Shown: positions 5,898 through 35,035, counted from the first letter of the stretch. The stretch: DNA of 64,000 bases from Fidelibacterota bacterium (GCA_018650445.1 JABIFX010000081.1:23407-87406); one strand, 5' to 3'. Numbers and translations: made by a program. The notes: generated by a model from the letters alone, not told the origin.

Positions 5898-6422
5898 TTA
5901 GGGTAAATCGATATACTCTGCGAGAATGCTCTGCTTCTCAGAATTAGATGATTTTTCAAGGACGATGAGCTCGCGATTCCCACCCAGCAGATAATGTCCG
6001 GCCAAATATCCCACTGCCCCTCCAACACTGATGGTGGTGATAAAATTCAAGGGAGTGTCAAGCCAGGTGGCTAATCTCTCACTCCATGTCATCTCGTCAA
6101 TGGAGCCGCGACCCTTGAAAAAAAACTTAATTCCAATGAAACTCCCTAACACAACGAGGCAGGGTGAGTATCTATTCGCTCTGCTGAATTCGCGAATCCC
6201 GGTAATCTCTGCCAGGCTCAAACTCCTCCTGGTATGGACTCCTGGCAGAAAGGGCACGTATTCCACAGTAACATCAAATTCTGAGACACTAATTACTCTG
6301 CAATCTTGAATGGTTTTATTATCACCATAAAAAATGGTAAGTGATTGAGCATGAAGTTGCTGCCCCTTTGAAGCTAGAACTGACATAAATATTATGATGA
6401 TTAATTGAATCAGTTTAATCAT
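5898..6422 (-). CDS. Hypothetical exported/membrane protein
   Basis: Signal-like N-terminus MIKLIQLIIIIFMSVLASKG and a C-terminal hydrophobic segment (ISVGGAVGYLAGHYLLGG). No recognisable family. Confidence 0.5.
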   Translation of the reverse strand: MIKLIQLIIIIFMSVLASKGQQLHAQSLTIFYGDNKTIQDCRVISVSEFDVTVEYVPFLPGVHTRRSLSLAEITGIREFSRANRYSPCLVVLGSFIGIKFFFKGRGSIDEMTWSERLATWLDTPLNFITTISVGGAVGYLAGHYLLGGNRELIVLEKSSNSEKQSILAEYIDLP

Positions 6423-9167: not shown

Positions 9168-9433
9168 AATTTATAACCTTTCTTAGAAGACCGAAACACA
9201 TCGTAGAATCCAGGATATTATTTAGGGTTGCTCAATTTCAAAGCAAAGCATCTTTTATATCACAATGGCTTAAAATAAACAGCAATCAGGGTAACCGAAC
9301 GAAATTTTTTGTCTCCATTAATCAGTATATTTCCCCATCAATCATTTACAGCTCAGCACGATTACCTATTTTTATCATGTATTGTATAGCTTATTATGGA
9401 AGTGCAACATGAAAAAAATAGGAATACTATGCA

Positions 9434-9997
9434 ATGACTGAAGTAACAGATATCGAGAGTCCTGTCGAAATAGATCCAGGTAACCAGCAGGACATCATTC
9501 ACACTCTGCGAACCGCGCAACAACATCAGGTTACTTTGAGTATGATCGCTGATCAAAAGGCCAATATCATCATCGGGTTTGCCTTGATATTCTTTTCAGT
9601 TATTCAATCACAGATATTCTCGGCAGAATTCATGGATGATATGTACTTTTTCCCAATCACTGCCCTCGCCCTGACTGTGTTTGTATCATTTTTCCTGGCA
9701 ATCATGGTAGTTTTACCACGTTTCAAGCGTGGTCATATCTATACCCAACCCTCCCAAATGCCCAATCCATTATTTTTTGGATTTTTTGCCTCCTTCACCC
9801 AGGCTGAGTATACGGACTATATGATGGATACTGTTAACAATAACGAGGCTGCACGTCGTTTGATGGTGCAGGATTTGTATCAAATTGGAGTGGTCCTCCA
9901 AAAGAAGTATGAACTTCTCAGATTCAGTTACTTGTCACTGGCCATCGGGGCACTTCTTTCAACTATCGTGTTGGTCATCAAACTGTTTTTTGTTTGA
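9434..9997 (+). CDS. DUF5706 / Pycsar-effector-family (PycTM-like) membrane protein, standalone
   Basis: TLSMIADQKANIIIGF, then two TM helices, then NPLFFGFF...MVQDLYQIGVVLQKKYELLRFSY and a final TM. This matches my recollection of the DUF5706 signature (ITLSDIADTKANILL ... NLLFFGNF ... DLYYLGLVLNRKYKLLR). Confidence 0.6.
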   Translation: MTEVTDIESPVEIDPGNQQDIIHTLRTAQQHQVTLSMIADQKANIIIGFALIFFSVIQSQIFSAEFMDDMYFFPITALALTVFVSFFLAIMVVLPRFKRGHIYTQPSQMPNPLFFGFFASFTQAEYTDYMMDTVNNNEAARRLMVQDLYQIGVVLQKKYELLRFSYLSLAIGALLSTIVLVIKLFFV

Positions 9998-25289: not shown

Positions 25290-27725
25290 TTACTTCAGAT
25301 ACACCATGCGCTTCACTTCTCTAAATGATCCTGCATTAAGGACATATAGATAGGTTCCACTACTCAGATTCTCAGGAGTAAAATGGACACTATAGTGACC
25401 TGCTTCATAATAACCTTCAGCAACCTCAGCTACCTGGGCGCCACGGATATCATAGATTTTCAAACTGATATCCCCAGAAACATCCAGAGCAAAGTCAATC
25501 GTTGTACTTGGGTTAAAGGGGTTAGGATAATTGCTGGCTAAACTTGAAACCTCAGGAATTTCTGGGGCCATTTCAGGTTCAACCCAAGCTCCATTTCCAC
25601 CTTTGGCAAGTCCAGCGCCACTGCCACCAAAATAACTGTCCAGCGCAAGATCAGCCTCTTTGTCGATTTTGATCTCAGCAGCCAGTATCGCACCCGTGAA
25701 AGCAGTTTTCTTCTTCAGCTCAACTTTACTTTCTGGGGCATAAATGGTACCATAGAACACCACATCGTCCTCCATCTTGACTGAATGGTGATGGTGATGG
25801 TGGTGGTGGTCCTCATTGTGATGATGATTACCATCAACATAGAAGATGATATCGGAGGCATCGATGTATGAACCATTTGCAGGTCCAACATATACATCCT
25901 TCTTGATCTTCAGTTCCTTTTCAACCCGGACTTCCGTAGCTTCTTCAAAGCGGATGTGACTCTGCTTTTTCGCTTCAAGCTTCTCGATGTTATATACACC
26001 ACCAGTAAAAGTCAATGTTCCACGATCTTCAACCTTGATGTGATGGTAGTCGCCTGGCTCTAAGACCAGATCCTGGTTTTTACGAACACGAATGTTCTGG
26101 CTACCAGCGGGAGCGGACTTGAAGGGAGGCATGGTGCTGAACATGGGGGTGTCACCAAAGGTATATTCATCACCGGTGATATCACCCTGATTTTCCAGCT
26201 CATTGTAGTAGACATCACTGGCAATCAAGGCATTGTGTTTAACCTTGATACCATCGGCCATCACTTTGTAACCTGCTGCAATGGTAACGTCTTTATCGAT
26301 CTTCAGTTCTTCATGGTCGTGATTGTGACCATCCTGTTCATGCTCATGGGTTTCATTGATCACAATGTTACCACTAAAGACCTCAATATCCTTTTTCAAG
26401 TCAATTTTGGTCTCAGCAAAAAGCAGGGCTCCAGCAAGGTCGGCTGTCACATTAACAGTTACCACGAAAGAAGTTGATACTTCAGCTTCCCATGGATCAA
26501 CGGCAGTAACCTCCACAAAGCTTTCACCTAGATCAACAACATCAAAACTCAATACGCTTCCGGTCAGGCTGCTTGTCACAGCATCACCATTGGAGCTTGT
26601 GAATGAATATGATAATACATCGCTGGTATCTGCATCAGAAAAGACTGTTAAAAGATCTATGTCAGCTGATAGAACATCATCACCATAGGATATTTCAAAA
26701 TCATCGATAGCATTAGCTACGATTGGTGCTGTATTGACAACTTCTACTACACGTTCGGCTGTACTTGCGTTGCCACCTTCATCAGTGGCTGTATATGTGA
26801 TCGTATAAGAAGCAGGGATATTGATATCTACACTACCGCTAATATCTATTGTCACATCTGAACCACAGGCATCTTCAGCTTCTATACCTGCTTCAGCATA
26901 GGCCAGATAAAGACCCAGCTCCATGGGGTTATCACCCAACATGGTGATCACAGGTGGTTCTGTGTCAGCAGTGATCTCTACGAGCACATTATCGCTCGAG
27001 GAAGCAGCATAGATGTCTGTTACCGTCAGGGTGAAGGTATGAGATCCTGCACCAAGGCTTGGTGTATAAGCGGCTGTGGAGCTAACCACATTCCCGCCAA
27101 GGCTCCAACTGTAGCTTAGGGCATCACCGTCGGGATCAGTGGAGGCAGATCCGTCCAGGTTTACAGCCACATCGTCTATGATACAATTTATAGCCACATC
27201 ATCACCAGCAGCTGCAACGGGAGCAGCATTGATCACGGTTACTATACGTTCAGTTGTGCTAGCATTTCCAGCTTCATCTGTGGCCGTGTAGGTCAAGGTA
27301 TATGAACCCGGGGTTTCCACATCTACTGTGCCACTCACATCAACTGTTACATCACTACAAAGGTCTGAGGCTTCATAACCTGGGTCTTCGTAAGGGATGT
27401 GAATATTTGTACTGAAGGGACCTGTACCCAACAATGTCAGTTCTGGAGCATCAGTGTCGGCCTCAACGGTGACTGATACCTCATCACTATCTGTTTCACC
27501 AAAGGCATCAGTTACGGTGAGAGTATAGTTGTAGGTGTGTGGAGTCAGACCTTTTTTGATGCCATCGATGTGGACCATCGCTTGCTCAGGGACAGATATT
27601 ATTTCAATGGTGCTAGGTGTGACAAAAGGGCTGCCATCAGGTTTTTGTGAGCCTGGAAGTGTTGTAACAAAAAAAGTTAATAGTAGTAATCCGAAAGCCA
27701 TATTTTCAATAAGTTTTCTCATCAT
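25290..27725 (-). CDS. Multi-domain surface protein: repeated Ig-like (HYR/DUF5011-like) and PKD domains, His-rich beta-helix-like region, T9SS CTD
   Basis: Repeated TYTATDEAGNAST..ERIV.V modules and a PKD-like segment DGSASTDPDGDALSYSWSL. His-rich tracts THEHEQDGHNHDHEE and HHHNEDHHHHHHHH. C-terminus NYPNPFNPSTTIDF...MVYLK. Confidence 0.8.
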   Translation of the reverse strand: MMRKLIENMAFGLLLLTFFVTTLPGSQKPDGSPFVTPSTIEIISVPEQAMVHIDGIKKGLTPHTYNYTLTVTDAFGETDSDEVSVTVEADTDAPELTLLGTGPFSTNIHIPYEDPGYEASDLCSDVTVDVSGTVDVETPGSYTLTYTATDEAGNASTTERIVTVINAAPVAAAGDDVAINCIIDDVAVNLDGSASTDPDGDALSYSWSLGGNVVSSTAAYTPSLGAGSHTFTLTVTDIYAASSSDNVLVEITADTEPPVITMLGDNPMELGLYLAYAEAGIEAEDACGSDVTIDISGSVDINIPASYTITYTATDEGGNASTAERVVEVVNTAPIVANAIDDFEISYGDDVLSADIDLLTVFSDADTSDVLSYSFTSSNGDAVTSSLTGSVLSFDVVDLGESFVEVTAVDPWEAEVSTSFVVTVNVTADLAGALLFAETKIDLKKDIEVFSGNIVINETHEHEQDGHNHDHEELKIDKDVTIAAGYKVMADGIKVKHNALIASDVYYNELENQGDITGDEYTFGDTPMFSTMPPFKSAPAGSQNIRVRKNQDLVLEPGDYHHIKVEDRGTLTFTGGVYNIEKLEAKKQSHIRFEEATEVRVEKELKIKKDVYVGPANGSYIDASDIIFYVDGNHHHNEDHHHHHHHHSVKMEDDVVFYGTIYAPESKVELKKKTAFTGAILAAEIKIDKEADLALDSYFGGSGAGLAKGGNGAWVEPEMAPEIPEVSSLASNYPNPFNPSTTIDFALDVSGDISLKIYDIRGAQVAEVAEGYYEAGHYSVHFTPENLSSGTYLYVLNAGSFREVKRMVYLK

Positions 27726-27967
27726 CCATCCTTATGTGATGTTCAATAGTGAGTATGATAATTAGGGATCCCCAAGATAGTGGTCTTCAAGTCCAGTAAA
27801 AAGACAGATCCTATTTGCCACGATCAACAGCCCCCAATACATGCAATATTCGTGCTAGTAAAGGATTGTGTCGACCATTTTTAAAGAGTTTTTTGAGTTG
27901 TGAGTTGCATCACTTGAGTGAGGAATCAACCGACTCGTGGACTTGCCCCCCTAAGGCTAACCATATA

Positions 27968-29011
27968 TCAACCGGTTCCCCCAGTAGCCTTGGCGGCTAT
28001 TGTAGTGTACATCTTACGATAAAATTGTCTACTCTTCAGGAAGGCAGCCAGCCCTGGTAAACGCATCTGAATATCTTTCCAGTGAGACCGAATAGCAGGC
28101 TGGAGCGGACCAAACCCGCTTCGTTGCAGTGTTGCCCCCCAGAGTGGGTTCAATTCAAGAAATACAGGCTGACCATCTTTGATAAGAAAATCTATGGCTC
28201 CAAGATTGTTTCCCAGAATGCTGACGCCGTCAATTATCTGCTTCCTGAAGAGAGGATCGTCCATTAGAGCATGGAGTTTGAGATTCAATTCTACGAAATA
28301 GCCATATTCCTCGAGACTGGCATCACGATAATGGATTTCTCTTTTCTGAGCACCAACACCATAGAAACTTAAGACCTTATCAAAGACAACATGCGCTCTG
28401 TAAGCTTCACTAAAGCCGGATCTCGTAGTAGTTTCGACAAACTCTACAGCCATGACTCGGCTATGTTTTCGATTCTTCTTCGCGGATTCTACACGATCGA
28501 AAAGTTTCTCCAGCGTACTCGTAATGAGTTTCTCGTCTGCATCCGGTTCGATAATCACCAGACCATCACCCCCGCTTTCGTTGTTGGTCCTGAGAATGAT
28601 TCGTGCAAAATTTTTTTGAAACGTCTCAACTTGGGATCGTGCGAGTTTTGGATCTGAGAGGATGATGTGATTGGGGACCAAGAGCCCTGCTCCCTTCCAC
28701 AGAGAATAGGATTCATCCTTCAGGTCGCCGGCATAAAAACTCTTGATATCATTCACTACAAGCCGTGAGTCTCGGTAGGTGGCAATCTTTGACTCAATGC
28801 GCTCAACGTCCTGATCGCTGGTTCTTTCAGGGATATTCCTGCAGAAGATTACATCGGCTTCGGAAATCTTGAAGGTTTGCCGCAAACCACCTGTAAAAAC
28901 GGCTGCTTCACTTTCATGCCGTCGACGACGTTCGATCCTGTAATGATCACGGAATTTTTTCTTGCGAAAGCCTTGGTGCAGACCAATAAAGTAAATACGT
29001 GGATGGGACAT
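27968..29011 (-). CDS. ATP-grasp-like protein (putative)
   Basis: The C-terminal GAIDFLIKDGQPVFLELNPLWG resembles the ATP-grasp Mg/ATP-binding strand. The rest is unassigned. Confidence 0.4.
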   Translation of the reverse strand: MSHPRIYFIGLHQGFRKKKFRDHYRIERRRRHESEAAVFTGGLRQTFKISEADVIFCRNIPERTSDQDVERIESKIATYRDSRLVVNDIKSFYAGDLKDESYSLWKGAGLLVPNHIILSDPKLARSQVETFQKNFARIILRTNNESGGDGLVIIEPDADEKLITSTLEKLFDRVESAKKNRKHSRVMAVEFVETTTRSGFSEAYRAHVVFDKVLSFYGVGAQKREIHYRDASLEEYGYFVELNLKLHALMDDPLFRKQIIDGVSILGNNLGAIDFLIKDGQPVFLELNPLWGATLQRSGFGPLQPAIRSHWKDIQMRLPGLAAFLKSRQFYRKMYTTIAAKATGGTG

Positions 29012-29100
29012 CGGTAAATATAGTTCCTGGATTTTAATAATGCGAACGATCTACTACGAGTGCAAGGTGCAGAAGATAGATCCTGATTCTCTCAGGCTGA

Positions 29101-30111
29101 TCATTTTAACTCATATTCAGATCTGTTAGGGAAAAATGCCTGCATAAATAATTTCATTTCCTCAATCACTTTAGGTGAAGTATCTGAATACTGATTTAAG
29201 CAGAAGGATGATGGTCTGTGGATGTTAATTTTTTCCAATACTAATTGAACATTCTCCAGCGACATATTGACATAAGTAAAATTGAACCTGAAAACGGTTC
29301 TGCCTAAAATGTTTAATTTCTTAGTTCTTCTGTGGATAGTTTTCAAATATTTAACTTTCGCTATACTTTTTGCAATAGCATAAAATCCGAAGAGATTATA
29401 GGGTATGATTGCGTTATTCTCCCGAAATGGGTGCTTAGATGTTTGAACAAATGCAACATTGTATTTTTCCTCTAACTCATATAAAACTGACTTCAGCATC
29501 GGTTTCACCGTATGCCGAAAATCATCATGGATATCCTTATTTAATGATTTTGATATCAAAATCCTGCTGTTTTCAATAGCATGTTGATGTTCATTATCTT
29601 GCCTGCCTTTAAGTTTAGAGCGATCTAAATGATGTTCTCTCTTCTTAGGCCACAATCTTGCTGTAAAGATATATGGCGTACCATTTTTAGTGAAAAAGTG
29701 TGTTGGTTTTGTAGATTTTCCCAAAAACATATCATCATTAAAGTAAATAAAGTGCTCCGAAAGGTCCTCTATGTGATGCAAATTTGCTTCAATTGCTCTA
29801 GCACTAAAGGTTGGTAGATGCGATTGATCTCGAAATATGGACTTATGGTCAATAATGGTAATTTTGGGATGAGAGATATCTAACCATGAGGGGACTTGAT
29901 TATCTGTTACGATGAATATTTTATTAACCCATGGCGCAAATTGATACACTGAGCGTAAAGAATATTTCAATTCATCATTATGTTGAAATCGCGCATCAGA
30001 ATTTGCGTTGGATGATACTCGGGCTCCAAGTTTTTCTGCAACAACTGTCCTTTTTCTGTTCCATTCCGAATCAGCGCCATCAACCCATGTATAGACAACA
30101 TCAATTTTCAT
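29101..30111 (-). CDS. Stealth-family hexose-1-phosphoryl transferase (capsule phosphotransferase-like)
   Basis: Stealth CR1 IDVVYTWVDGADSEW and CR2 NDELKYSLRSVYQFAPWVNKIFIVTDNQVPSWL. The gene is visibly AT-richer than its neighbours. Confidence 0.85.
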   Translation of the reverse strand: MKIDVVYTWVDGADSEWNRKRTVVAEKLGARVSSNANSDARFQHNDELKYSLRSVYQFAPWVNKIFIVTDNQVPSWLDISHPKITIIDHKSIFRDQSHLPTFSARAIEANLHHIEDLSEHFIYFNDDMFLGKSTKPTHFFTKNGTPYIFTARLWPKKREHHLDRSKLKGRQDNEHQHAIENSRILISKSLNKDIHDDFRHTVKPMLKSVLYELEEKYNVAFVQTSKHPFRENNAIIPYNLFGFYAIAKSIAKVKYLKTIHRRTKKLNILGRTVFRFNFTYVNMSLENVQLVLEKINIHRPSSFCLNQYSDTSPKVIEEMKLFMQAFFPNRSEYELK

Positions 30112-30220
30112 TACTCAGCTAAAATATCCTATGTTTGCCCCACATTTTTGTGGAGGGGCATATTGTTTGTTCGCAAGAAGTATCAAAGAGTGTTTTAACC
30201 ATTCGATATAGACTGTGAGG

Positions 30221-30269
30221 TCTCTACCAAAATCATGCTATTTGTTCTGAGCTCTTCTGACAGGATATA
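30221..30269 (+). repeat. Left copy of a 49-bp imperfect inverted repeat
   Basis: tctctaccaaaatcatgctatttgttctgagctcttctgacaggatata matches the reverse complement of 33901-33949 at 43/49 positions, including a perfect 24-nt core caaaatcatgctatttgttctgag. Confidence 0.9.
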
Positions 30270-30423
30270 TTGAATGTCGTCAAAGCATTTCGGAACTTAG
30301 TAGCTAAAAGTTAAGAGACACTTTGGAGTTGTCCAGTTCATTGTGCAAACACCTCATGGCACCAAAACTAAAGACCTTGTTTTGACTCAATGCAGAGATG
30401 ATACTCGATATTAGAACCTGATA

Positions 30424-31953
30424 TCAGCGTAGATATATCATCTTAATCACTCGCGAGGAATTCCCAGATTGTATTCTTGCGAAGTAGATACCAGTGCCTA
30501 CCTGAGTACCTTCACTATCGATACCATTCCACTGGACAGTGTATCGACCAGCGGCTTTGGATTCCGAGACAAGCGTTCTGATGTGATGCCCCTGAATGTC
30601 CGTTACCATGAGCTTTACTTCAGATGCTTCAAGAGTTTCGTACTCGATAGTTGTTGTAGGATTGAAGGGGTTTGGAAAATTATTGAGCATACTGAGGGAT
30701 TCAGCCTTCACATGATCCTGTGAGATTGATGTTACATCAGAAGTATGCCAGGATGCGGTGATCGTATATTCAACCCCATTTAATACACTGAGATCCCCGA
30801 TGTAAAGCTGACTAATGCCAGTAAACTCAACCGTAGTGGCACCTTTGACACCTATAAACCATGTTCCTGGTTCAGGATCCGATATCACAAAATAGTGATC
30901 CGAACCACCTGATGTGAGTGAAGCCTCAGCAGAACCAGAAAAAGCGTAGTCATCTGGATCGGCGAAAAGATGGATGTCATACTGCTCTCCTGCTTCAAGC
31001 TCGATAGAAATACTGCCCGCTTCTTCAGGGACTTCAAAACTGTAGTGGTGGTACTGTAGATCTCCTATCCGTGTGAATTGAGGATTAGACTCTTCATATG
31101 TCTTGTCCATTACCCGCGGTTCACCATTTACTAAAGTAGCTTTAATTTCTGGAGGAGCACATCCATCGAGGGCATAGAGTAGTAGGCTTTCCATTAACAT
31201 CAATCCTTCTCCAAGAATCTCTCCCTCAGGATGTGATCCAATGGCCAACATTCTGCCCGTAGTATCATTTTCTTTGTAGGTCCAACAGCTGGGGCGCTGA
31301 TCCACAGAGGGATGCTGGGTGTAATCATAGCGAAGCAATATTTCAGTTCCTGGGGGTAATGAATTTGATTCATCAGCATAGACACCGCCCCAGTGGAAAA
31401 TATTACTGATATACATATCATCTCCAAATGTGGAGTAATTCAGTAATGCGCTGTTTGGTGAGATGAAATGACCTGTGTATACACCAGCACCAGTAATTCC
31501 TGTACCCAGCATAACACCTGGCCAGATTATTTCGCTCAATATTGCACCGGCACATGTTCCCACATATCCACTTCCTCCAGAATAGAAAGCCTGGATTCGT
31601 TCCACCCCCGCCTCACCTAGAGCATAATAATGAGGGACAGCATCGCCGCCGTTCACATAGATGGTTCTGAATCGCGGTGCTCCATCAGGGTATAATAGCC
31701 ACCCGTTACTGTCCATATCACTTCCAATAATAACGGCGTTTTGCATATTCTGTGATTCTGAAGCAAGATACTCCCAACTCAATCCAAGAGAGTCCGCGGC
31801 AGGCAAAGTAGTCCTGGAGGTTAGACCTACACCACCATCCATGAATAAATCTTTGTAATAACCCTCCGTCTGCGCTAAGCATGAAAAACACACACTTAAC
31901 AGGGTAATCAAATACGCGAGTCTATTGGATAGAGGTCCTTTTGAGGATGTCAT
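30424..31953 (-). CDS. Secreted protein with T9SS CTD (glutamine-amidotransferase-like/BPL_N-like N-terminal region, uncertain)
   Basis: Signal peptide, SGGSGYVGTCAGAIL, and C-terminus NFPNPFNPTTTIEY...MIYLR. Confidence 0.65.
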   Translation of the reverse strand: MTSSKGPLSNRLAYLITLLSVCFSCLAQTEGYYKDLFMDGGVGLTSRTTLPAADSLGLSWEYLASESQNMQNAVIIGSDMDSNGWLLYPDGAPRFRTIYVNGGDAVPHYYALGEAGVERIQAFYSGGSGYVGTCAGAILSEIIWPGVMLGTGITGAGVYTGHFISPNSALLNYSTFGDDMYISNIFHWGGVYADESNSLPPGTEILLRYDYTQHPSVDQRPSCWTYKENDTTGRMLAIGSHPEGEILGEGLMLMESLLLYALDGCAPPEIKATLVNGEPRVMDKTYEESNPQFTRIGDLQYHHYSFEVPEEAGSISIELEAGEQYDIHLFADPDDYAFSGSAEASLTSGGSDHYFVISDPEPGTWFIGVKGATTVEFTGISQLYIGDLSVLNGVEYTITASWHTSDVTSISQDHVKAESLSMLNNFPNPFNPTTTIEYETLEASEVKLMVTDIQGHHIRTLVSESKAAGRYTVQWNGIDSEGTQVGTGIYFARIQSGNSSRVIKMIYLR

Positions 31954-31987
31954 TTTCGTCTCCCAGCAATATTCATTAGTTTCAGCA

Positions 31988-33439
31988 CTATCTCAAATAG
32001 CTCATTTTTTTTGTCAGCACTTCCCGCCCGCTTTTTAGCCCGTATATATATACGCCAGAGCTGACTTTTCTACCGTTGAGATCATCACCCTCCCATCTGA
32101 ATTCATAGGTGCCAGCATGCAGCATGCCCTTAAAAAGTGTCCGAATATGTGATCCTCTCAGATCGTAGACCTCTAGTGATAAATAATTGTTTTCATTTAT
32201 CATGACCGGGATGGTTGTTGCCGGATTGAATGGGTTTGGATAATTCTGAAGCAGCTTGATGGTGGTGGGTTCGACTATATTGTGATCCAGGCTCGTAGTT
32301 GAATAATACTCAAAGCATCCCATATCGGGGGCGAAGCCGTTAAAGTCCCCTTCAGAGAGATTTACCAGCGTGTCTCCAGAAGTTGAATCTACATAAACGG
32401 CGCTCCCTGCATCAATACAAGCCGAACTTGAATCCAATTGGTAATTACTATTTACTGCATCGACAAAAAGAGGATCAGAGGACATGATTGACTCAAAGGT
32501 ATTCAATTCATTACTATCGATAAGCATTCCATCCAAACCGCCCTCGATTGTGCAGTGTGCAATCAGCAGATCACTGGCAGCCCACCCACTTGTATGGCTC
32601 GCGATCTCACTATATTGATTTCCCCAGCAAATAGAGTTGGTCATATAAAGATTGGAATGTTCAGTGATAAGTATTCCTCCACCGTCGTAATTGGTATCAG
32701 TATAGTTGGTTACGATAGTGCTGCGGTTTATGTTAAGTGTCGCATATTCATGAACCCATACTCCTCCACCTCCATATCGGCCATCATTACCATATACCAG
32801 GAGTTGATCAGCATCCAAACTTGACTGCCTCACACTTATTCCCCCTGCTATTTCAGCTGCATAATTGCTCACAATTTTTACATTCCTAAAAGTTGGATTA
32901 GAATTCATGGCGATTGAAACACCCCCACCCCAACTAGAACTGTTTCCGATAATTTCTACATTCTCCAGTAGAGGGTGTGATTCTACAGAGATTCCAATAC
33001 CACCTCCAGCGGAACCAGTTCCCGTCGCTGTATTCCCTGAGATAATTAGATTGCGCAATGTCGGAGAAGAGTATATACGGCAAATGATACCCCCACCAAA
33101 CCGTTCTACGGTTGTGTAATCCACTCCAATTCCATTTGTAATTGTAAATCCATCTAATACTGCAGCAGGAGATTCTCCATTTACAAATTGGACAACACTA
33201 CTTACCTCATTCCCATCGATTGTCGTAGAGACTGGACCATCCATAGACATAACAACGATGTTCTTTCCGTTAAAATTTAGGTTTTCTGTGTAGGTGCCAG
33301 GTAAGACCAACACGGTGTCTCCTGTGTTCACATTATCTATTCCAGCTTGAATTGTTGCATGATCCATTGGAATCAGAGTCACTGCTGCCAAGGCACAGGT
33401 ACCGATGAGCGTCATCAAAATAATTACTACGGTTCGCAT
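31988..33439 (-). CDS. Right-handed parallel beta-helix repeat protein with T9SS CTD
   Basis: Repeated GGGI/GGGV turns (FGGGIICRI, AGGGIGISV, WGGGVSIAM, GGGGVWVHE, DGGGILITE) and C-terminus NYPNPFNPATTIPV...MSYLR. Confidence 0.75.
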   Translation of the reverse strand: MRTVVIILMTLIGTCALAAVTLIPMDHATIQAGIDNVNTGDTVLVLPGTYTENLNFNGKNIVVMSMDGPVSTTIDGNEVSSVVQFVNGESPAAVLDGFTITNGIGVDYTTVERFGGGIICRIYSSPTLRNLIISGNTATGTGSAGGGIGISVESHPLLENVEIIGNSSSWGGGVSIAMNSNPTFRNVKIVSNYAAEIAGGISVRQSSLDADQLLVYGNDGRYGGGGVWVHEYATLNINRSTIVTNYTDTNYDGGGILITEHSNLYMTNSICWGNQYSEIASHTSGWAASDLLIAHCTIEGGLDGMLIDSNELNTFESIMSSDPLFVDAVNSNYQLDSSSACIDAGSAVYVDSTSGDTLVNLSEGDFNGFAPDMGCFEYYSTTSLDHNIVEPTTIKLLQNYPNPFNPATTIPVMINENNYLSLEVYDLRGSHIRTLFKGMLHAGTYEFRWEGDDLNGRKVSSGVYIYGLKSGREVLTKKMSYLR

Positions 33440-33650
33440 GATATTTCTTTCTCATTTTTGTTTATGTGACAGTTGGAATATGACTCAGAGAGAAAAAATA
33501 AGCACCTTTACAAAACCTTTACAAATGCATTTTTCAATCTTGAAATGAAAATGGAGAACTGTTTTCGTGGATAATAATTATTGAGCAAAGCATGCAGGTA
33601 TCGAAGTGCTACCATGACATAGGTTACTCATCATTCAACATGCTAAATTT

Positions 33651-33669
33651 GAAAAACCCGCTGCGGGTT
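33651..33669 (-). terminator. Small terminator-like hairpin downstream of the OMP remnant
   Basis: AACCCG-CTG-CGGGTT. On the minus strand it is followed by TTTTTC. Confidence 0.35.
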
Positions 33670-33671
33670 AG

Positions 33672-33690
33672 ATGTGACTGGAATGTGACT
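33672..33690 (+). repeat. Direct repeat ATGTGACT x2 with 11-bp period
   Basis: ATGTGACT occurs at 33672-33679 and at 33683-33690. Confidence 0.8.
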
Positions 33691-33765
33691 AAACTGAAAG
33701 AGCCCCATTTCTGAGGCTCTTTCGACTAAAGTTTGTTTCTCAAAGCATTCAATAAGCTGATTATC

Positions 33766-33909
33766 TCAATACAATCCTACTTTGACGCCTAGGTTAAAAT
33801 ACACACCACTCATATCAGAATCTGTGTACGTGTACTCAGTACCTGCACCATCGTAGTATTCACCTTGCTGAGTGAATGTTAGTTCATCAAGGCCCGTTAC
33901 TGTATCCTG
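33766..33909 (-). pseudogene. C-terminal remnant of an outer-membrane beta-barrel-like gene
   Basis: An open frame of 47 codons with no start codon: QDTVTGLDELTFTQQGEYYDGAGTEYTYTDSDMSGVYFNLGVKVGLY*. An in-frame TGA lies immediately upstream (33910-33912), inside the inverted-repeat copy. Confidence 0.4.
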
Positions 33910-33949
33910 TCAGAGCAACTCAGAACAAATAGCATGATTTTGTAAGAGA
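33901..33949 (-). repeat. Right copy of the 49-bp inverted repeat
   Basis: Its reverse complement tctcttacaaaatcatgctatttgttctgagttgctctgacaggataca pairs with 30221-30269. Confidence 0.9.
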
Positions 33950-33975
33950 TACTTTTGGCTAGTTTGAAAGCTTGA

Positions 33976-34299
33976 AAGGAAGAAGCAAGCACTGAATTCC
34001 CTTTCAACCTTAATTACCACACCACACTTAAGATTGTGAAGAAGTATTACAAGACTGCGAATATTGAGAATGCTAATATCCATACTTTACGCAGAACATT
34101 TGGATCAATAATGGTCCAACAGGGTGTTGATATTTTCACTGTGAGCAAACTACTCGGGCACAGTTCAGTTACAGTTAGCGAAAAGCATTATGCGGATCTT
34201 CTTCCGAGTAATTTAAAGGCAGGTGTTAAGGTTCTTGAGAAAGCTCTCAGGCGAAAGCCGAAGAAGAAGCCCAAGAAGCAGAAGAAAGAGTCCAGTTAA
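33976..34299 (+). pseudogene. Tyrosine recombinase (phage-integrase family), C-terminal ~105 codons only
   Basis: NIHTLRRTFGS (HxxR) and LLGHSSVTVSEKHYADL (catalytic Tyr region). The frame opens at 33976 just after a TGA and has no ATG. The N-terminal two-thirds of a normal integrase are absent. Confidence 0.8.
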
Positions 34300-34317
34300 C
34301 CTTGGGCTCTTTTTTTT
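34287..34317 (+). terminator. Rho-independent terminator after the recombinase remnant
   Basis: AGAGTCC (34287-34293) and GGGCTCT (34304-34310) form the stem, followed by T7. Confidence 0.7.
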
Positions 34318-34401
34318 CTCAAGTTTTCATACCTATCCGTTGCCTGACGATCCTCAAACGTAGTAATATGTCCAATGTTACATGAAATATATCCAGATTA
34401 A

Positions 34402-34455
34402 GTGACCATTCCGTGACCATGCTATGCTAATTAGTGGTTAATTGTGGTCAATTGG
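34402..34455 (+). repeat. Helically phased direct repeats (GTGACCAT x2, then TAATT(A)GTGGT x2 plus CAATTGG)
   Basis: GTGACCAT occurs at 34402-34409 and 34413-34420. TAATTAGTGGT, TAATTGTGGT and CAATTGG lie between 34428 and 34455, about 10-11 bp apart. Confidence 0.75.
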
Positions 34456-34483
34456 ATACATTCCTCAAAAAATGCATCCAATG

Positions 34484-34517
34484 AAAAACCCCTCGTAACT
34501 CTTTGGATTACAAGGGG
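34484..34517 (-). terminator. Rho-independent terminator closing the G+C-rich element
   Basis: On the minus strand, CCCCUUGUAA and UUACGAGGGG form a 10-bp stem with one G-U pair, followed by UUUUUC. On the plus strand the same position is a C-A mismatch, which favours minus-strand function. Confidence 0.65.
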
Positions 34518-34523
34518 TTTAAA

Positions 34524-34796
34524 TGGTGGGCCACCCCGCATTCGCTTCGCTCTGACGGGACAAGCAGGGAGTTGCCGTTCGTTTCACTCCGGCGTCCCTA
34601 CGATTCTGCTGCTAGCAGATTCTCCGTGGTGAACCCCTGTTCGGGGTGCAAGTTCAGTGGGTCCAGGTTGGAAACTGGCTTTGGGGAATGAAACACAGGG
34701 AGTTGGCTGCGAGCTTCGCTCTCGCCTCTTCTCGTCACTTGCCGCTGGCAACTGACTGCGTAGTGAACCCCTTCGGGGTGAAAGTCTGGGGTGCCC
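34524..34796 (-). ncRNA. Unassigned G+C-rich structured element (candidate ncRNA, strand tentative)
   Basis: 57-58% G+C in the two 60-nt lines I counted, against 37% for 34381-34440. The ends pair: GGGCACCCC with GGGGUG(G)CCC. The interior is a tandem duplication with a ~131-134 nt period and covarying hairpins. Terminators flank both sides, and there is no credible ORF. Confidence 0.4.
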
Positions 34797-34800
34797 ATAC

Positions 34801-34835
34801 AAAAGAAAAAGCCGCCGAATGGCGACTTTTCTTTT
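34801..34835 (-). terminator. Terminator immediately 3' of tRNA-Met
   Basis: On the minus strand, GUCGCC-AUUC-GGCGGC (one G-U pair) is followed by UUUUUCUUUU. On plus the stem has a C-A mismatch. Confidence 0.6.
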
Positions 34836-34836
34836 G

Positions 34837-34910
34837 TGGGCCCACAGGGACTTGAACCCCGAACCGACGGATTATGAGTCCGGCGCTCTAACCAATTGAG
34901 CTATGGGCCC
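34837..34910 (-). tRNA. tRNA with CAT anticodon (elongator tRNA-Met, or tRNA-Ile2 if lysidinylated); CCA not encoded
   Basis: I folded a cloverleaf by hand. Acceptor GGGCCCA/TGGGCCC, D-arm GCTCAATTGGTTAGAGC, anticodon stem CCGGA/TCCGT with loop CTCATAA, and T-arm CGGGG-TTCAAGT-CCCTG. The discriminator is A followed by CAA, not CCA. It is not initiator-like, because pair 1-72 is intact and the anticodon stem lacks three G-C pairs. Confidence 0.9.
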
Positions 34911-35035
34911 GATAGTGAATTGGGAACAGGTGATTTCATTACTCACAAAGCTCCCAAAGAGCCAATTAAAATAGTCGAGGGGTCATGCATGTGCAAAGGG
35001 ATTGTATTTCCAAACCCGAGACAAACCCCCATAAT

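What the first reader, a model, noticed from the sequence alone, without database searches (positions are those of the whole stretch)
30221..33949. 49-bp inverted repeat brackets a 3.6-kb segment carrying two T9SS cargo genes and abuts a truncated tyrosine recombinase
- **The repeat.** 30221-30269 and the reverse complement of 33901-33949 match at 43/49 positions, with a perfect 24-nt core (caaaatcatgctatttgttctgag). A chance match of this length in 64 kb is negligible.
- **Orientation.** Both copies read inward toward the segment that holds genes 30424..31953 and 31988..33439 and the OMP remnant.
- **Right-hand junction.** The right copy sits exactly where two truncated genes meet. The OMP remnant loses its frame inside the repeat, and the recombinase remnant frame opens only about 25 nt beyond it.
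- **Interpretations.** This geometry fits three possibilities: a recombinase-driven invertible segment now frozen, terminal inverted repeats of a non-autonomous element, or a scar of an inversion that destroyed both flanking genes.
- **Mini-ORF.** Each copy contains a 12-codon ORF, MLFVLS(S/C)SDRI(Y/Q)*. I do not consider it established.
Basis: seen in the sequence. Interest (0 to 1): 0.62.

Follow-up and report, generated by a model that had tools for sequence, protein, structure and literature searches.

The report
Leftover ends of an insertion sequence
The 49-base inverted repeat is real, but it is two leftover left ends of an ordinary IS3-type jumping gene, one of them fused by a deletion to a broken integrase, and not a switchable or mobile 3.6-kb segment.

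Summary
30221-30269 and the reverse complement of 33901-33949 match at 43/49 positions with a perfect 24-nt core, against 0 expected by chance.

The repeat is the left terminal inverted repeat (IRL) of a 1516-bp IS3-family insertion sequence. That IS has an HTH orfA, a DDE orfB in the -1 frame, an A-rich slippery site and TG...CA ends. Complete copies exist in the same genome (C258:558-2073) and in congeners.

The window holds three relics of it:
- IS[1-49] at 30221-30269 (-).
- The IS right end, IS[~1420-1516], at 30271-30355 (-), abutting the first relic as an IRR|1 nt|IRL junction.
- IS[1-81] at 33901-33981 (+), fused to the last ~83 homologous codons of a 340-aa integrase.

Congeners carry that integrase intact next to tRNA-Met. 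The IS termini point towards the 3.6-kb segment, so the segment lies outside the IS ends, not inside an element. The genus holds many other solo IS ends of varied length.

The most likely history is IS insertions in an accessory region beside a tRNA-Met island, followed by deletions. The 12-codon mini-ORF is not conserved. This is ordinary and of low interest.

The parts
30221..30269 (-). Relic 'a': left end (IRL) of the IS3-family IS, IS positions 1-49. The terminus at 30269 is mutated from TG to TA, and similarity ends at 30221.
   Evidence: 89% identity to IS[3-49] of the complete G007 copy. Alignment shown. 43/49 identical to the right-hand copy.
30270..30270 (.). Single-nucleotide spacer between the IRL terminus and the IRR terminus, forming an abutted IRR|IRL junction.
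   Evidence: Alignments of both relics to the IS ends. The sequence is shown.
30271..30355 (-). Relic 'b': right end of the same IS type, IS positions ~1420-1516, comprising the last orfB codons, the 3' untranslated part and the IRR. Its interior side faces the T9SS gene, whose stop codon is 68 nt away at 30424.
   Evidence: 90% identity to IS[1432-1511]. The alignment reaches the terminus. The same end occurs as solo relics in G011, G010, G002 and own contigs C57, C79 and C61.
33901..33981 (+). Relic 'd': left end of the IS, positions 1-81, from the TG terminus at 33901 to just before where orfA's ATG would lie. Similarity then stops.
   Evidence: The first 56 nt are identical to the G007 IS, and identity is 90% over 81 nt. 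In five congener loci the same sequence continues into orfA.
33769..33900 (-). 3' stub of an unidentified gene (43 host-derived codons plus stop), cut by the IS terminus.
   Evidence: Frame read. No Pfam hit and no homolog in the genome or in 80 relatives.
33976..34299 (+). C-terminal remnant of a tyrosine integrase of a tRNA-Met island. It is homologous to residues 258-340 of the intact 340-aa protein.
   Evidence: Pfam PF00589, E=3.5e-12. 70% identity to G016 integrase residues 258-340. Intact genes lie next to tRNA-Met in G016 and G014.
34836..34910 (-). tRNA-Met gene, the anchor of the decayed island. Its 3' 47 nt recur as exact fragments in many genomes of the genus.
   Evidence: ARAGORN and Rfam. 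Exact 47-nt fragments.
30424..33439 (-). Two T9SS-cargo genes (30424..31953 and 31988..33439). They are bystanders lying between the IS relics, outside the IS ends.
   Evidence: Por_Secre_tail and FlgD_ig domains. No DNA homolog in 22 congeners apart from the C-terminal sorting domain.
29101..30111 (-). Low-G+C Stealth-family gene whose start lies 110 nt beyond the inner edge of relic 'a'.
   Evidence: Stealth CR1-CR4 domains. G+C is 0.35 against about 0.44 in the surroundings.

Best explanation
The inverted repeat consists of two fossil left ends (IRL) of an IS3-family insertion sequence, left behind in an accessory, rearrangement-prone region next to tRNA-Met.

Shown:
- The intact IS is 1516 bp and has TG...CA imperfect terminal repeats.
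- It carries an HTH orfA and a DDE (rve) orfB in the -1 frame, behind a TTAAAAAAAAG slippery run.
- The window keeps IS[1-81] at 33901-33981, and an abutted pair IS[~1420-1516]|1 nt|IS[1-49] at 30355-30221 on the minus strand.
- The recombinase stub is the tail of an integrase that congeners carry intact beside tRNA-Met.

Inferred history:
- One IS copy inserted into a gene to the left of the island, leaving that gene's 3' stub.
- A single later deletion ran from IS position ~82 to integrase codon ~255. It removed the rest of the IS, the 5' part of the stub gene, the island body and the island's far attachment site.
- At the left locus, either two IS copies sat head to tail or a second copy inserted beside the end of a first. 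Deletions from inside each copy then left only the junction.

The relics have no transposase, and the left IRL terminal dinucleotide is mutated, so I infer that they are inert. The inverted orientation of the two IRL relics is incidental. At most, the 24-nt identical core could support rare homologous recombination.
For: - **Conservation pattern.** In six of 22 congeners (seven loci) the 24-nt core is present. In five of those loci the sequence on one side is conserved and runs into a gene, while on the other side similarity stops abruptly after ...GACAGGATACA.
- **Transposase genes.** The adjacent gene is orfA (PF01527 HTH_Tnp_1). It is followed by a 331-aa orfB with rve domains that scores 180.3 bits on NCBIfam IS3 NF033516, above the cutoff of 160.
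- **Frameshift set-up.** orfB is in the -1 frame and is open across the slippery site.
- **Complete copies.** G007:C172:1-1516, own C258:558-2073 (83% identical) and G012:C77:4724-6229 (86%).
- **Imperfect ends.** IRL and IRR are imperfect inverted repeats starting with TGTA.
- **Window pieces.** They match IS[1-81], IS[3-49] and IS[1432-1511] at 89-90% identity.
- **Other relics.** Truncated ends have left-end lengths of 41, 67, 126 and 416 nt and right-end lengths of 32, 63, 73, 99, 116, 117 and 317 nt. Their inner flanks are unrelated to one another.
- **Integrase remnant.** 70% identical to residues 258-340 of the integrase beside tRNA-Met in G016. There is no second tRNA-fragment repeat on the 99.6-kb contig.
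- **Independent contig.** Metagenome contig Ga0209054_1031051 is 100% identical to window 33215-34946, so the right junction is reproduced.
- **Abundance.** The transposase has at least 8000 homologs, some named 'InsO family'.
Against: - No target-site duplication is visible at either of the two complete copies that have both flanks.
- orfB has its own N-terminal HTH. It scores slightly higher on the IS481 model (196 bits), though below that model's cutoff of 224. Placement within the IS3/IS481 group is therefore not clean.
- The order and number of insertion and deletion events is inferred, not shown.
- Three relics within 3.7 kb is more clustering than independent random events would give, so a linked history (IS-flanked module or tandem dimer) is possible.
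- The abutted IRR|IRL junction is unique among 23 genomes of the genus, and no specific event explains it.
Confidence: 0.9

Rival explanations
1. The three relics are the remains of one IS-flanked, composite-transposon-like module. Two IS copies in inverted orientation, with their IRL ends inward as in Tn10-type composites, brought in or once mobilised the two T9SS-cargo genes. Both flanking copies later decayed.
For: Three relics of one IS type cluster within 3.7 kb, whereas the whole genome has only about nine sites of this IS type. The enclosed genes and the Stealth region are species-specific, with no DNA homolog in 22 congeners. The relic orientations are compatible with two inverted copies whose IRL ends face inward.
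Against: The two IRL relics differ at 6 of 49 positions. One is identical to the G007-type IS over 56 nt while the other is 89% identical, which suggests different variants or ages. A third relic (IS[1-49]) abutting the IRR is not needed by this model. No outer ends or target duplications survive. No related module was found elsewhere.
Confidence: 0.12
2. A site-specific invertible segment. The 47-mers would be recombination sites for the adjacent tyrosine recombinase, now frozen because the recombinase is truncated.
For: Inverted repeats flank a gene-bearing segment next to a tyrosine recombinase remnant.
Against: The 47-mer is the terminus of a DDE-transposase IS in five congener loci and in the same genome. 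The recombinase belongs to an integrase found beside tRNA-Met in congeners, and the recurring sequence at those sites is the 47-nt tRNA 3' end. Only 83 of 340 residues survive. The left copy is part of an IRR|IRL junction. An independent contig shows the same orientation at the right junction.
Confidence: 0.02
3. A scar of a single inversion between the two repeat copies that split the integrase and the neighbouring gene.
For: Two truncated genes meet at the right copy.
Against: An inversion would place the missing integrase N-terminus just inside the left copy and the missing 5' part of the stub gene just outside it. Those positions hold 68 nt of spacer plus an IS right-end relic, and the intact Stealth gene. 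No other piece of the stub gene exists in the assembly.
Confidence: 0.02
4. A chance match or an assembly artefact.
For: The genome is an 87%-complete, 273-contig assembly fragmented by a high-copy IS.
Against: No matches are expected by chance. The relic sequences are unique within the assembly, so no repeat-induced misjoin is needed. The right junction is reproduced exactly in a separate metagenome contig. The copies are not identical, as a k-mer artefact would require.
Confidence: 0.02

Closest known systems
IS3-family insertion sequences (for example IS911, IS2, IS3, IS150; OrfB = 'InsO' type transposase)
   Same: - Length about 1.5 kb.
- orfA with an HTH_Tnp_1 domain.
- orfB with a DDE/rve domain in the -1 frame, behind an A-run slippery site.
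- Imperfect terminal repeats that begin 5'-TG and end CA-3'.
- orfB passes the NCBIfam IS3 threshold.
- The abutted IRR|IRL arrangement at 30270 has the layout of the minicircle junction through which this family transposes. That junction is described for IS2 in PMC3299598 (abstract seen).
   Different: - orfB carries its own N-terminal HTH_23/HTH_32 region and also resembles IS481 transposases.
- orfA's stop overlaps orfB's ATG (ATGA).
- No 3-5 bp target duplication is seen at the two complete copies.
- The window copies are dead fragments of 49, about 85-97 and 81 nt.
Solo IS ends and IS relics in decaying accessory regions
   Same: These are truncated terminal fragments of varied length with unrelated inner flanks, scattered in this genome and across the genus.
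   Different: Here two left-end relics happen to lie inverted 3.6 kb apart, and one abuts a right-end relic. That mimics a bracketed element.
tRNA-targeting integrative islands with a tyrosine integrase next to the tRNA 3' end
   Same: An integrase remnant lies about 540 nt from the 3' end of tRNA-Met. Intact homologs sit beside tRNA-Met in four congeners, and an exact 47-nt tRNA 3' fragment recurs at those sites.
   Different: In the window only the last quarter of the integrase survives, and no second tRNA-fragment repeat is present on the contig.
Invertible DNA segments flanked by inverted repeats (Bacteroides invertible promoters, shufflons)
   Same: Superficial geometry only: inverted repeats around a segment next to a tyrosine recombinase gene.
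   Different: The repeats are transposon ends, the recombinase is an island integrase stub, and there is no evidence of two orientations.

Membership tests
IS3-family insertion sequence (the parent element) | DDE transposase with an rve catalytic core that reaches the curated family threshold | tested here: met
   PF00665 rve, E=2.6e-24. NF033516 transpos_IS3 scores 180.3 bits against a cutoff of 160. The IS481 model scores 196.1 bits, below its cutoff of 224.
IS3-family insertion sequence (the parent element) | Two consecutive ORFs, orfA (HTH) and orfB in the -1 frame, with an A-rich slippery motif in the overlap | tested here: met
   orfA starts at IS position 89 and has PF01527. The orfB frame is -1 relative to orfA and is open from position 361 across TTAAAAAAAAGC at position 407. 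Frameshifting itself was not demonstrated.
IS3-family insertion sequence (the parent element) | Imperfect terminal inverted repeats ending 5'-TG...CA-3', and overall length of about 1.2-1.55 kb | tested here: met
   Both ends begin TGTA, and the IRL/IRR alignment is shown. Lengths are 1516 bp (G007 and own C258) and 1506 bp (G012).
IS3-family insertion sequence (the parent element) | Short (3-5 bp) direct target duplications at insertions | tested here: inconclusive
   None is seen at own C258 (flanks ...tggc / ctag...) or at G012:C77 (flanks ...attg / ggat...). With only two complete copies that have both flanks, recombination between copies could have erased them.
IS3-family insertion sequence (the parent element) | Copy-out/paste-in transposition through a circle with abutted ends | not testable with these tools
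   This needs experiments or reads. The family pathway is taken from PMC3299598.
Relics of that IS (the window's repeat copies) | Sequence identity to the IS termini, with similarity ending at the IS terminus on one side | tested here: met
   89-90% identity to IS[1-81], IS[3-49] and IS[1432-1511]. In seven related loci similarity stops at ...GGATACA.
Non-autonomous element or MITE bracketing the 3.6-kb segment | Terminal repeats with their outer termini facing away from the enclosed DNA, and a target duplication outside | tested here: not met
   The TG termini lie at 30269 and 33901 and face the segment, while the IS interiors point outward. No duplication is seen at 30213-30220 or 33950-33957.
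Recombinase-driven invertible segment | An intact cognate recombinase, and repeats that are its recombination sites | tested here: not met
   Only residues ~258-340 of 340 remain. The repeats are DDE-transposon ends.
Recombinase-driven invertible segment | Both orientations present in the population | not testable with these tools
The one independent contig found has the same orientation at the right junction. The left-junction scan found nothing.
tRNA-Met island integrase (the recombinase stub) | Homology to integrases adjacent to tRNA-Met, and the same position relative to the tRNA | tested here: met
   70% identity over 83 aa to the G016 integrase. Integrase matches lie within a few hundred nt of tRNA-Met sequence in G016, G022, G014 and G011, and the G016 and G014 genes are intact.

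The most novel reading that the evidence does not exclude
The abutted IRR|1 nt|IRL relic at 30221-30355 has the layout of an IS3-family circle or tandem-dimer junction. It lies 110 nt upstream of the low-G+C Stealth gene on the same strand. It could be a fossilised junction promoter that now drives the Stealth/ATP-grasp pair. Alternatively, the 24-nt identical cores could still allow rare RecA-dependent flipping of the two T9SS-cargo genes. Neither is excluded, because no reads or transcripts could be examined.
Probability: 0.05. Interest if true: 0.35.

Novelty: new member of a known kind. Interest (0 to 1): 0.12.

Why it matters
It matters mainly for annotation. A striking 49-bp inverted repeat around secreted-protein genes next to a recombinase stub looks like a phase-variable or mobile cassette, but it is debris from IS3-family insertion sequences and a deleted tRNA-Met island.

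These elements shape its accessory regions and fragment its assemblies.

It also gives a simple rule for similar findings. First check whether a repeat is the terminus of an IS present intact elsewhere in the genome or genus, and which way its TG end points.

Tried and rejected
- **Metagenome scan, left outer flank plus core.** No match.
- **Metagenome scan, right deletion junction.** One contig, identical to the window and in the same orientation.
- **Synteny in relatives.** Window 27000-33900 has no DNA homolog in 22 congeners beyond the IS end and the T9SS sorting domain. The DNA beyond tRNA-Met differs in G014 and G015. No uninterrupted ancestral arrangement could be recovered.
- **Full-length version of the 47-codon stub.** No Pfam hit, no paralog, and no hit in 80 relatives.
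- **Integron reading (integrase, attI, cassettes).** I considered this early because variable DNA starts right after the conserved 47-mer. I rejected it once the conserved side proved to be IS orfA/orfB.
- **Att-site reading of the 47-mer.** Rejected for the same reason.
- **Sigma-70-like promoter at the IRR|IRL junction.** None found.
- **Other abutted IRR|IRL junctions in the genus.** None found.
- **Shared sequence inside the right-end relics.** This could have pointed to a separate MITE, but the inner flanks are unrelated.
- **Rfam.** Only the tRNA was found in the window.
Full report
**Observation**

The repeat is real. The repeat finder reports arms 30221-30267 and 33903-33949 (47 nt, 89% complementary, 3635 nt apart). 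Counting 30221-30269 against the reverse complement of 33901-33949 gives 43/49. The 24-nt core occurs twice in the window against 0.00 expected from shuffles. It also occurs only twice in the whole 3.9-Mb, 273-contig assembly.

- A Stealth-family gene at 29101..30111 (-).
- Two T9SS-cargo genes at 30424..31953 and 31988..33439 (-).
- A 47-codon stub ending at 33769 (-).
- A tyrosine-recombinase C-terminal fragment at 33976..34299 (+).
- tRNA-Met at 34836-34910 (-).

**What the repeat is**

The core is present in six of 22 congeners. I aligned 300 nt around each copy. In five loci (G018 twice, G003, G011, G007) about 110 nt on one side is conserved and contains a start codon. On the other side similarity stops abruptly after ...TGACAGGATACA, and every genome continues differently. 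That is the signature of a mobile-element terminus.

The adjacent genes are as follows:
- A 121-aa orfA with PF01527 HTH_Tnp_1.
- A 331-aa orfB with rve, rve_3 and HTH_32 domains.
- orfB scores 180.3 bits on NCBIfam IS3 (cutoff 160), and 196.1 bits on IS481, which is below that model's cutoff of 224.

orfB is in the -1 frame relative to orfA. That frame is open from IS position 361, across a TTAAAAAAAAGC run at position 407. The element is 1516 bp, and its two ends are imperfect inverted repeats that both begin TGTA.

Complete copies are G007:C172:1-1516, the window genome's own C258:558-2073 (83% identical) and G012:C77:4724-6229 (86%). The transposase has at least 8000 database homologs at E<=1e-20. 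Several are named 'transposase InsO family protein', and many sit on ~1.5-kb contigs.

**Anatomy in the window**

BLAST of the IS against the genome finds three pieces in the window.

- **Piece d.** 33901-33981 (+) is IS[1-81]. It is identical to the G007 IS over the first 56 nt and ends just where orfA's start codon would be.
- **Piece a.** 30221-30269 (-) is IS[1-49]. It is 89% identical to the G007 IS, and its terminal TG is mutated to TA.
- **Piece b.** 30271-30355 (-) is the other end of the IS, about IS[1420-1516].

On the minus strand the left locus therefore reads as follows:
- the T9SS gene stop, then 68 nt;
- the IS right end (IRR), then 1 nt;
- the IS left end (IRL, 49 nt), then 110 nt;
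- the Stealth ATG.

The TG termini of both IRL copies face the 3.6-kb segment and their interiors point away. The segment lies outside the IS ends, which is the opposite of what a bracketing element requires.

**The recombinase stub**

Its homologs in congeners are intact 340-aa integrases. In G016, G022, G014 and G011 the integrase matches lie within a few hundred bases of tRNA-Met sequence. The G016 and G014 genes were read and are intact.

In G016 and G014 the integrase sits at the tRNA-proximal end of a gene set that my reading of the ORF lists suggests is phage- or ICE-like. It includes a second small recombinase and RadC-like and nuclease-like genes. Only the integrase was put through a family search.

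The window fragment is 70% identical to residues 258-340. An exact 47-nt fragment of the tRNA-Met 3' end recurs at many sites in the genus, which is the usual att-core footprint. On the window's 99.6-kb contig there is no second copy. The stub is therefore what remains of a tRNA-Met island, and it has no relationship to the 47-mer.

**Most likely history (inferred)**

At the right locus, one insertion and one deletion are enough.
1. The IS inserted into a minus-strand gene to the left of the island, leaving the 43 host-derived codons at 33900-33769.
2. A deletion from IS position ~82 to integrase codon ~255 then removed the rest of the IS, the 5' part of that gene, the island body and its distal att site.

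At the left locus, two IS copies lay head to tail. Either they formed a tandem dimer, or a second copy inserted next to the end of a first. Deletions starting inside each copy left only the junction.

Such decay is common in this genus. Left-end relics of 41, 67, 126 and 416 nt and right-end relics of 32, 63, 73, 99, 116, 117 and 317 nt occur in this genome and in congeners. Their inner flanks are unrelated to one another.

[quoted passage not shown] The left locus has that layout, but I cannot show how it arose. It is unique among 23 genomes of the genus.

**Rivals**

- **Invertible segment.** The repeats are DDE-transposon ends, the recombinase is an unrelated island integrase reduced to a quarter of its length, and an independent contig has the same orientation.
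- **Single inversion scar.** This fails because the reciprocal junction does not hold the missing gene halves.
- **Chance or misassembly.** This fails, on the uniqueness of the relic sequences, and on metagenome contig Ga0209054_1031051, which is 100% identical to window 33215-34946.
- **Decayed IS-flanked composite module.** This is the one rival I keep, at about 12%. It would have carried the two cargo genes. It fits the clustering of three relics and the species-specific content. Against it, the two IRL relics differ at 6/49 positions and match different IS variants.

**Mini-ORF**

It reads outward through the IS terminus, so its stop lies in whatever DNA flanks each insertion. The complete IS copy in the same genome encodes MLNAPTCSDRIQPFLSK at that place. 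It is not a conserved coding unit.

**Limits**

- No target duplications were seen at the two complete copies.
- The 'OMP' identity of the stub is unverified.
- Relatives give no ancestral synteny, because the region is species-specific.

**Verdict**

These are relics of an IS3-family insertion sequence at the edge of a deleted tRNA-Met island. The IS is probably an unnamed member of a very well known family. Interest is low.

Noticed in passing
G000 contig ends (for example C38:1-139 and 9412-9550, C23:1-139, C8:1-139, C141:2-140, C235:1-138, C56:1-137): A second, related IS, about 72-74% identical to the ends of the IS studied here, lies at or within about 15 nt of some 30 contig ends of the assembly, mostly as ~139-nt overlaps. 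A high-copy IS appears to be what fragments this genome assembly.
   Followed up: partly
window 34836-34882; G000 C99:10769-10815 and C20:29974-30020; many congener sites: The 3' 47 nt of tRNA-Met recur as exact or near-exact fragments across the genus, often beside integrase homologs. This is the footprint of a family of tRNA-Met-targeting islands. C20 also carries an integrase 53% identical to the window stub.
   Followed up: partly
window 34533-34835: This is a G+C-rich block with a ~132-nt tandem unit and inverted partial copies of the tRNA T-arm (repeat families D6, D13 and I7). It looks inserted relative to G001:C102, where the sequence matching 34451-34532 directly abuts tRNA-Met.
   Followed up: no
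L026 (G011:C74) 2251-2398 and 6032-6168: G011 has two tandem right-end relics of the same IS (116 nt and 32 nt). About 3.6 kb further on there is a forward IS left end at the contig edge, and a tRNA-Met 3' fragment lies at the contig start. This is a similar mix of IS debris and tRNA-Met att remnants to that in the window.
   Followed up: partly
window 28900-30300: The Stealth gene and its upstream spacer are markedly A+T-rich (G+C 0.35-0.37 against about 0.44). The right edge of this tract roughly coincides with the inner edge of IS relic 'a' at 30221, which hints at a separately acquired piece joined at the IS relic.
   Followed up: no
window 30145-30171: A hairpin (GCCCCAC ATTTTT GTGGAGGGGC) lies between IS relic 'a' and the Stealth start codon. 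The terminator scan did not call it, and its role is unknown.
   Followed up: no
right-end relics in the window (30271-30355), G011, G010 and G002: Four independent right-end relics have similar lengths (97-117 nt, from the last orfB codons to the terminus) despite unrelated inner flanks. This could be coincidence, or it could hint that this stretch is preferentially retained.
   Followed up: partly
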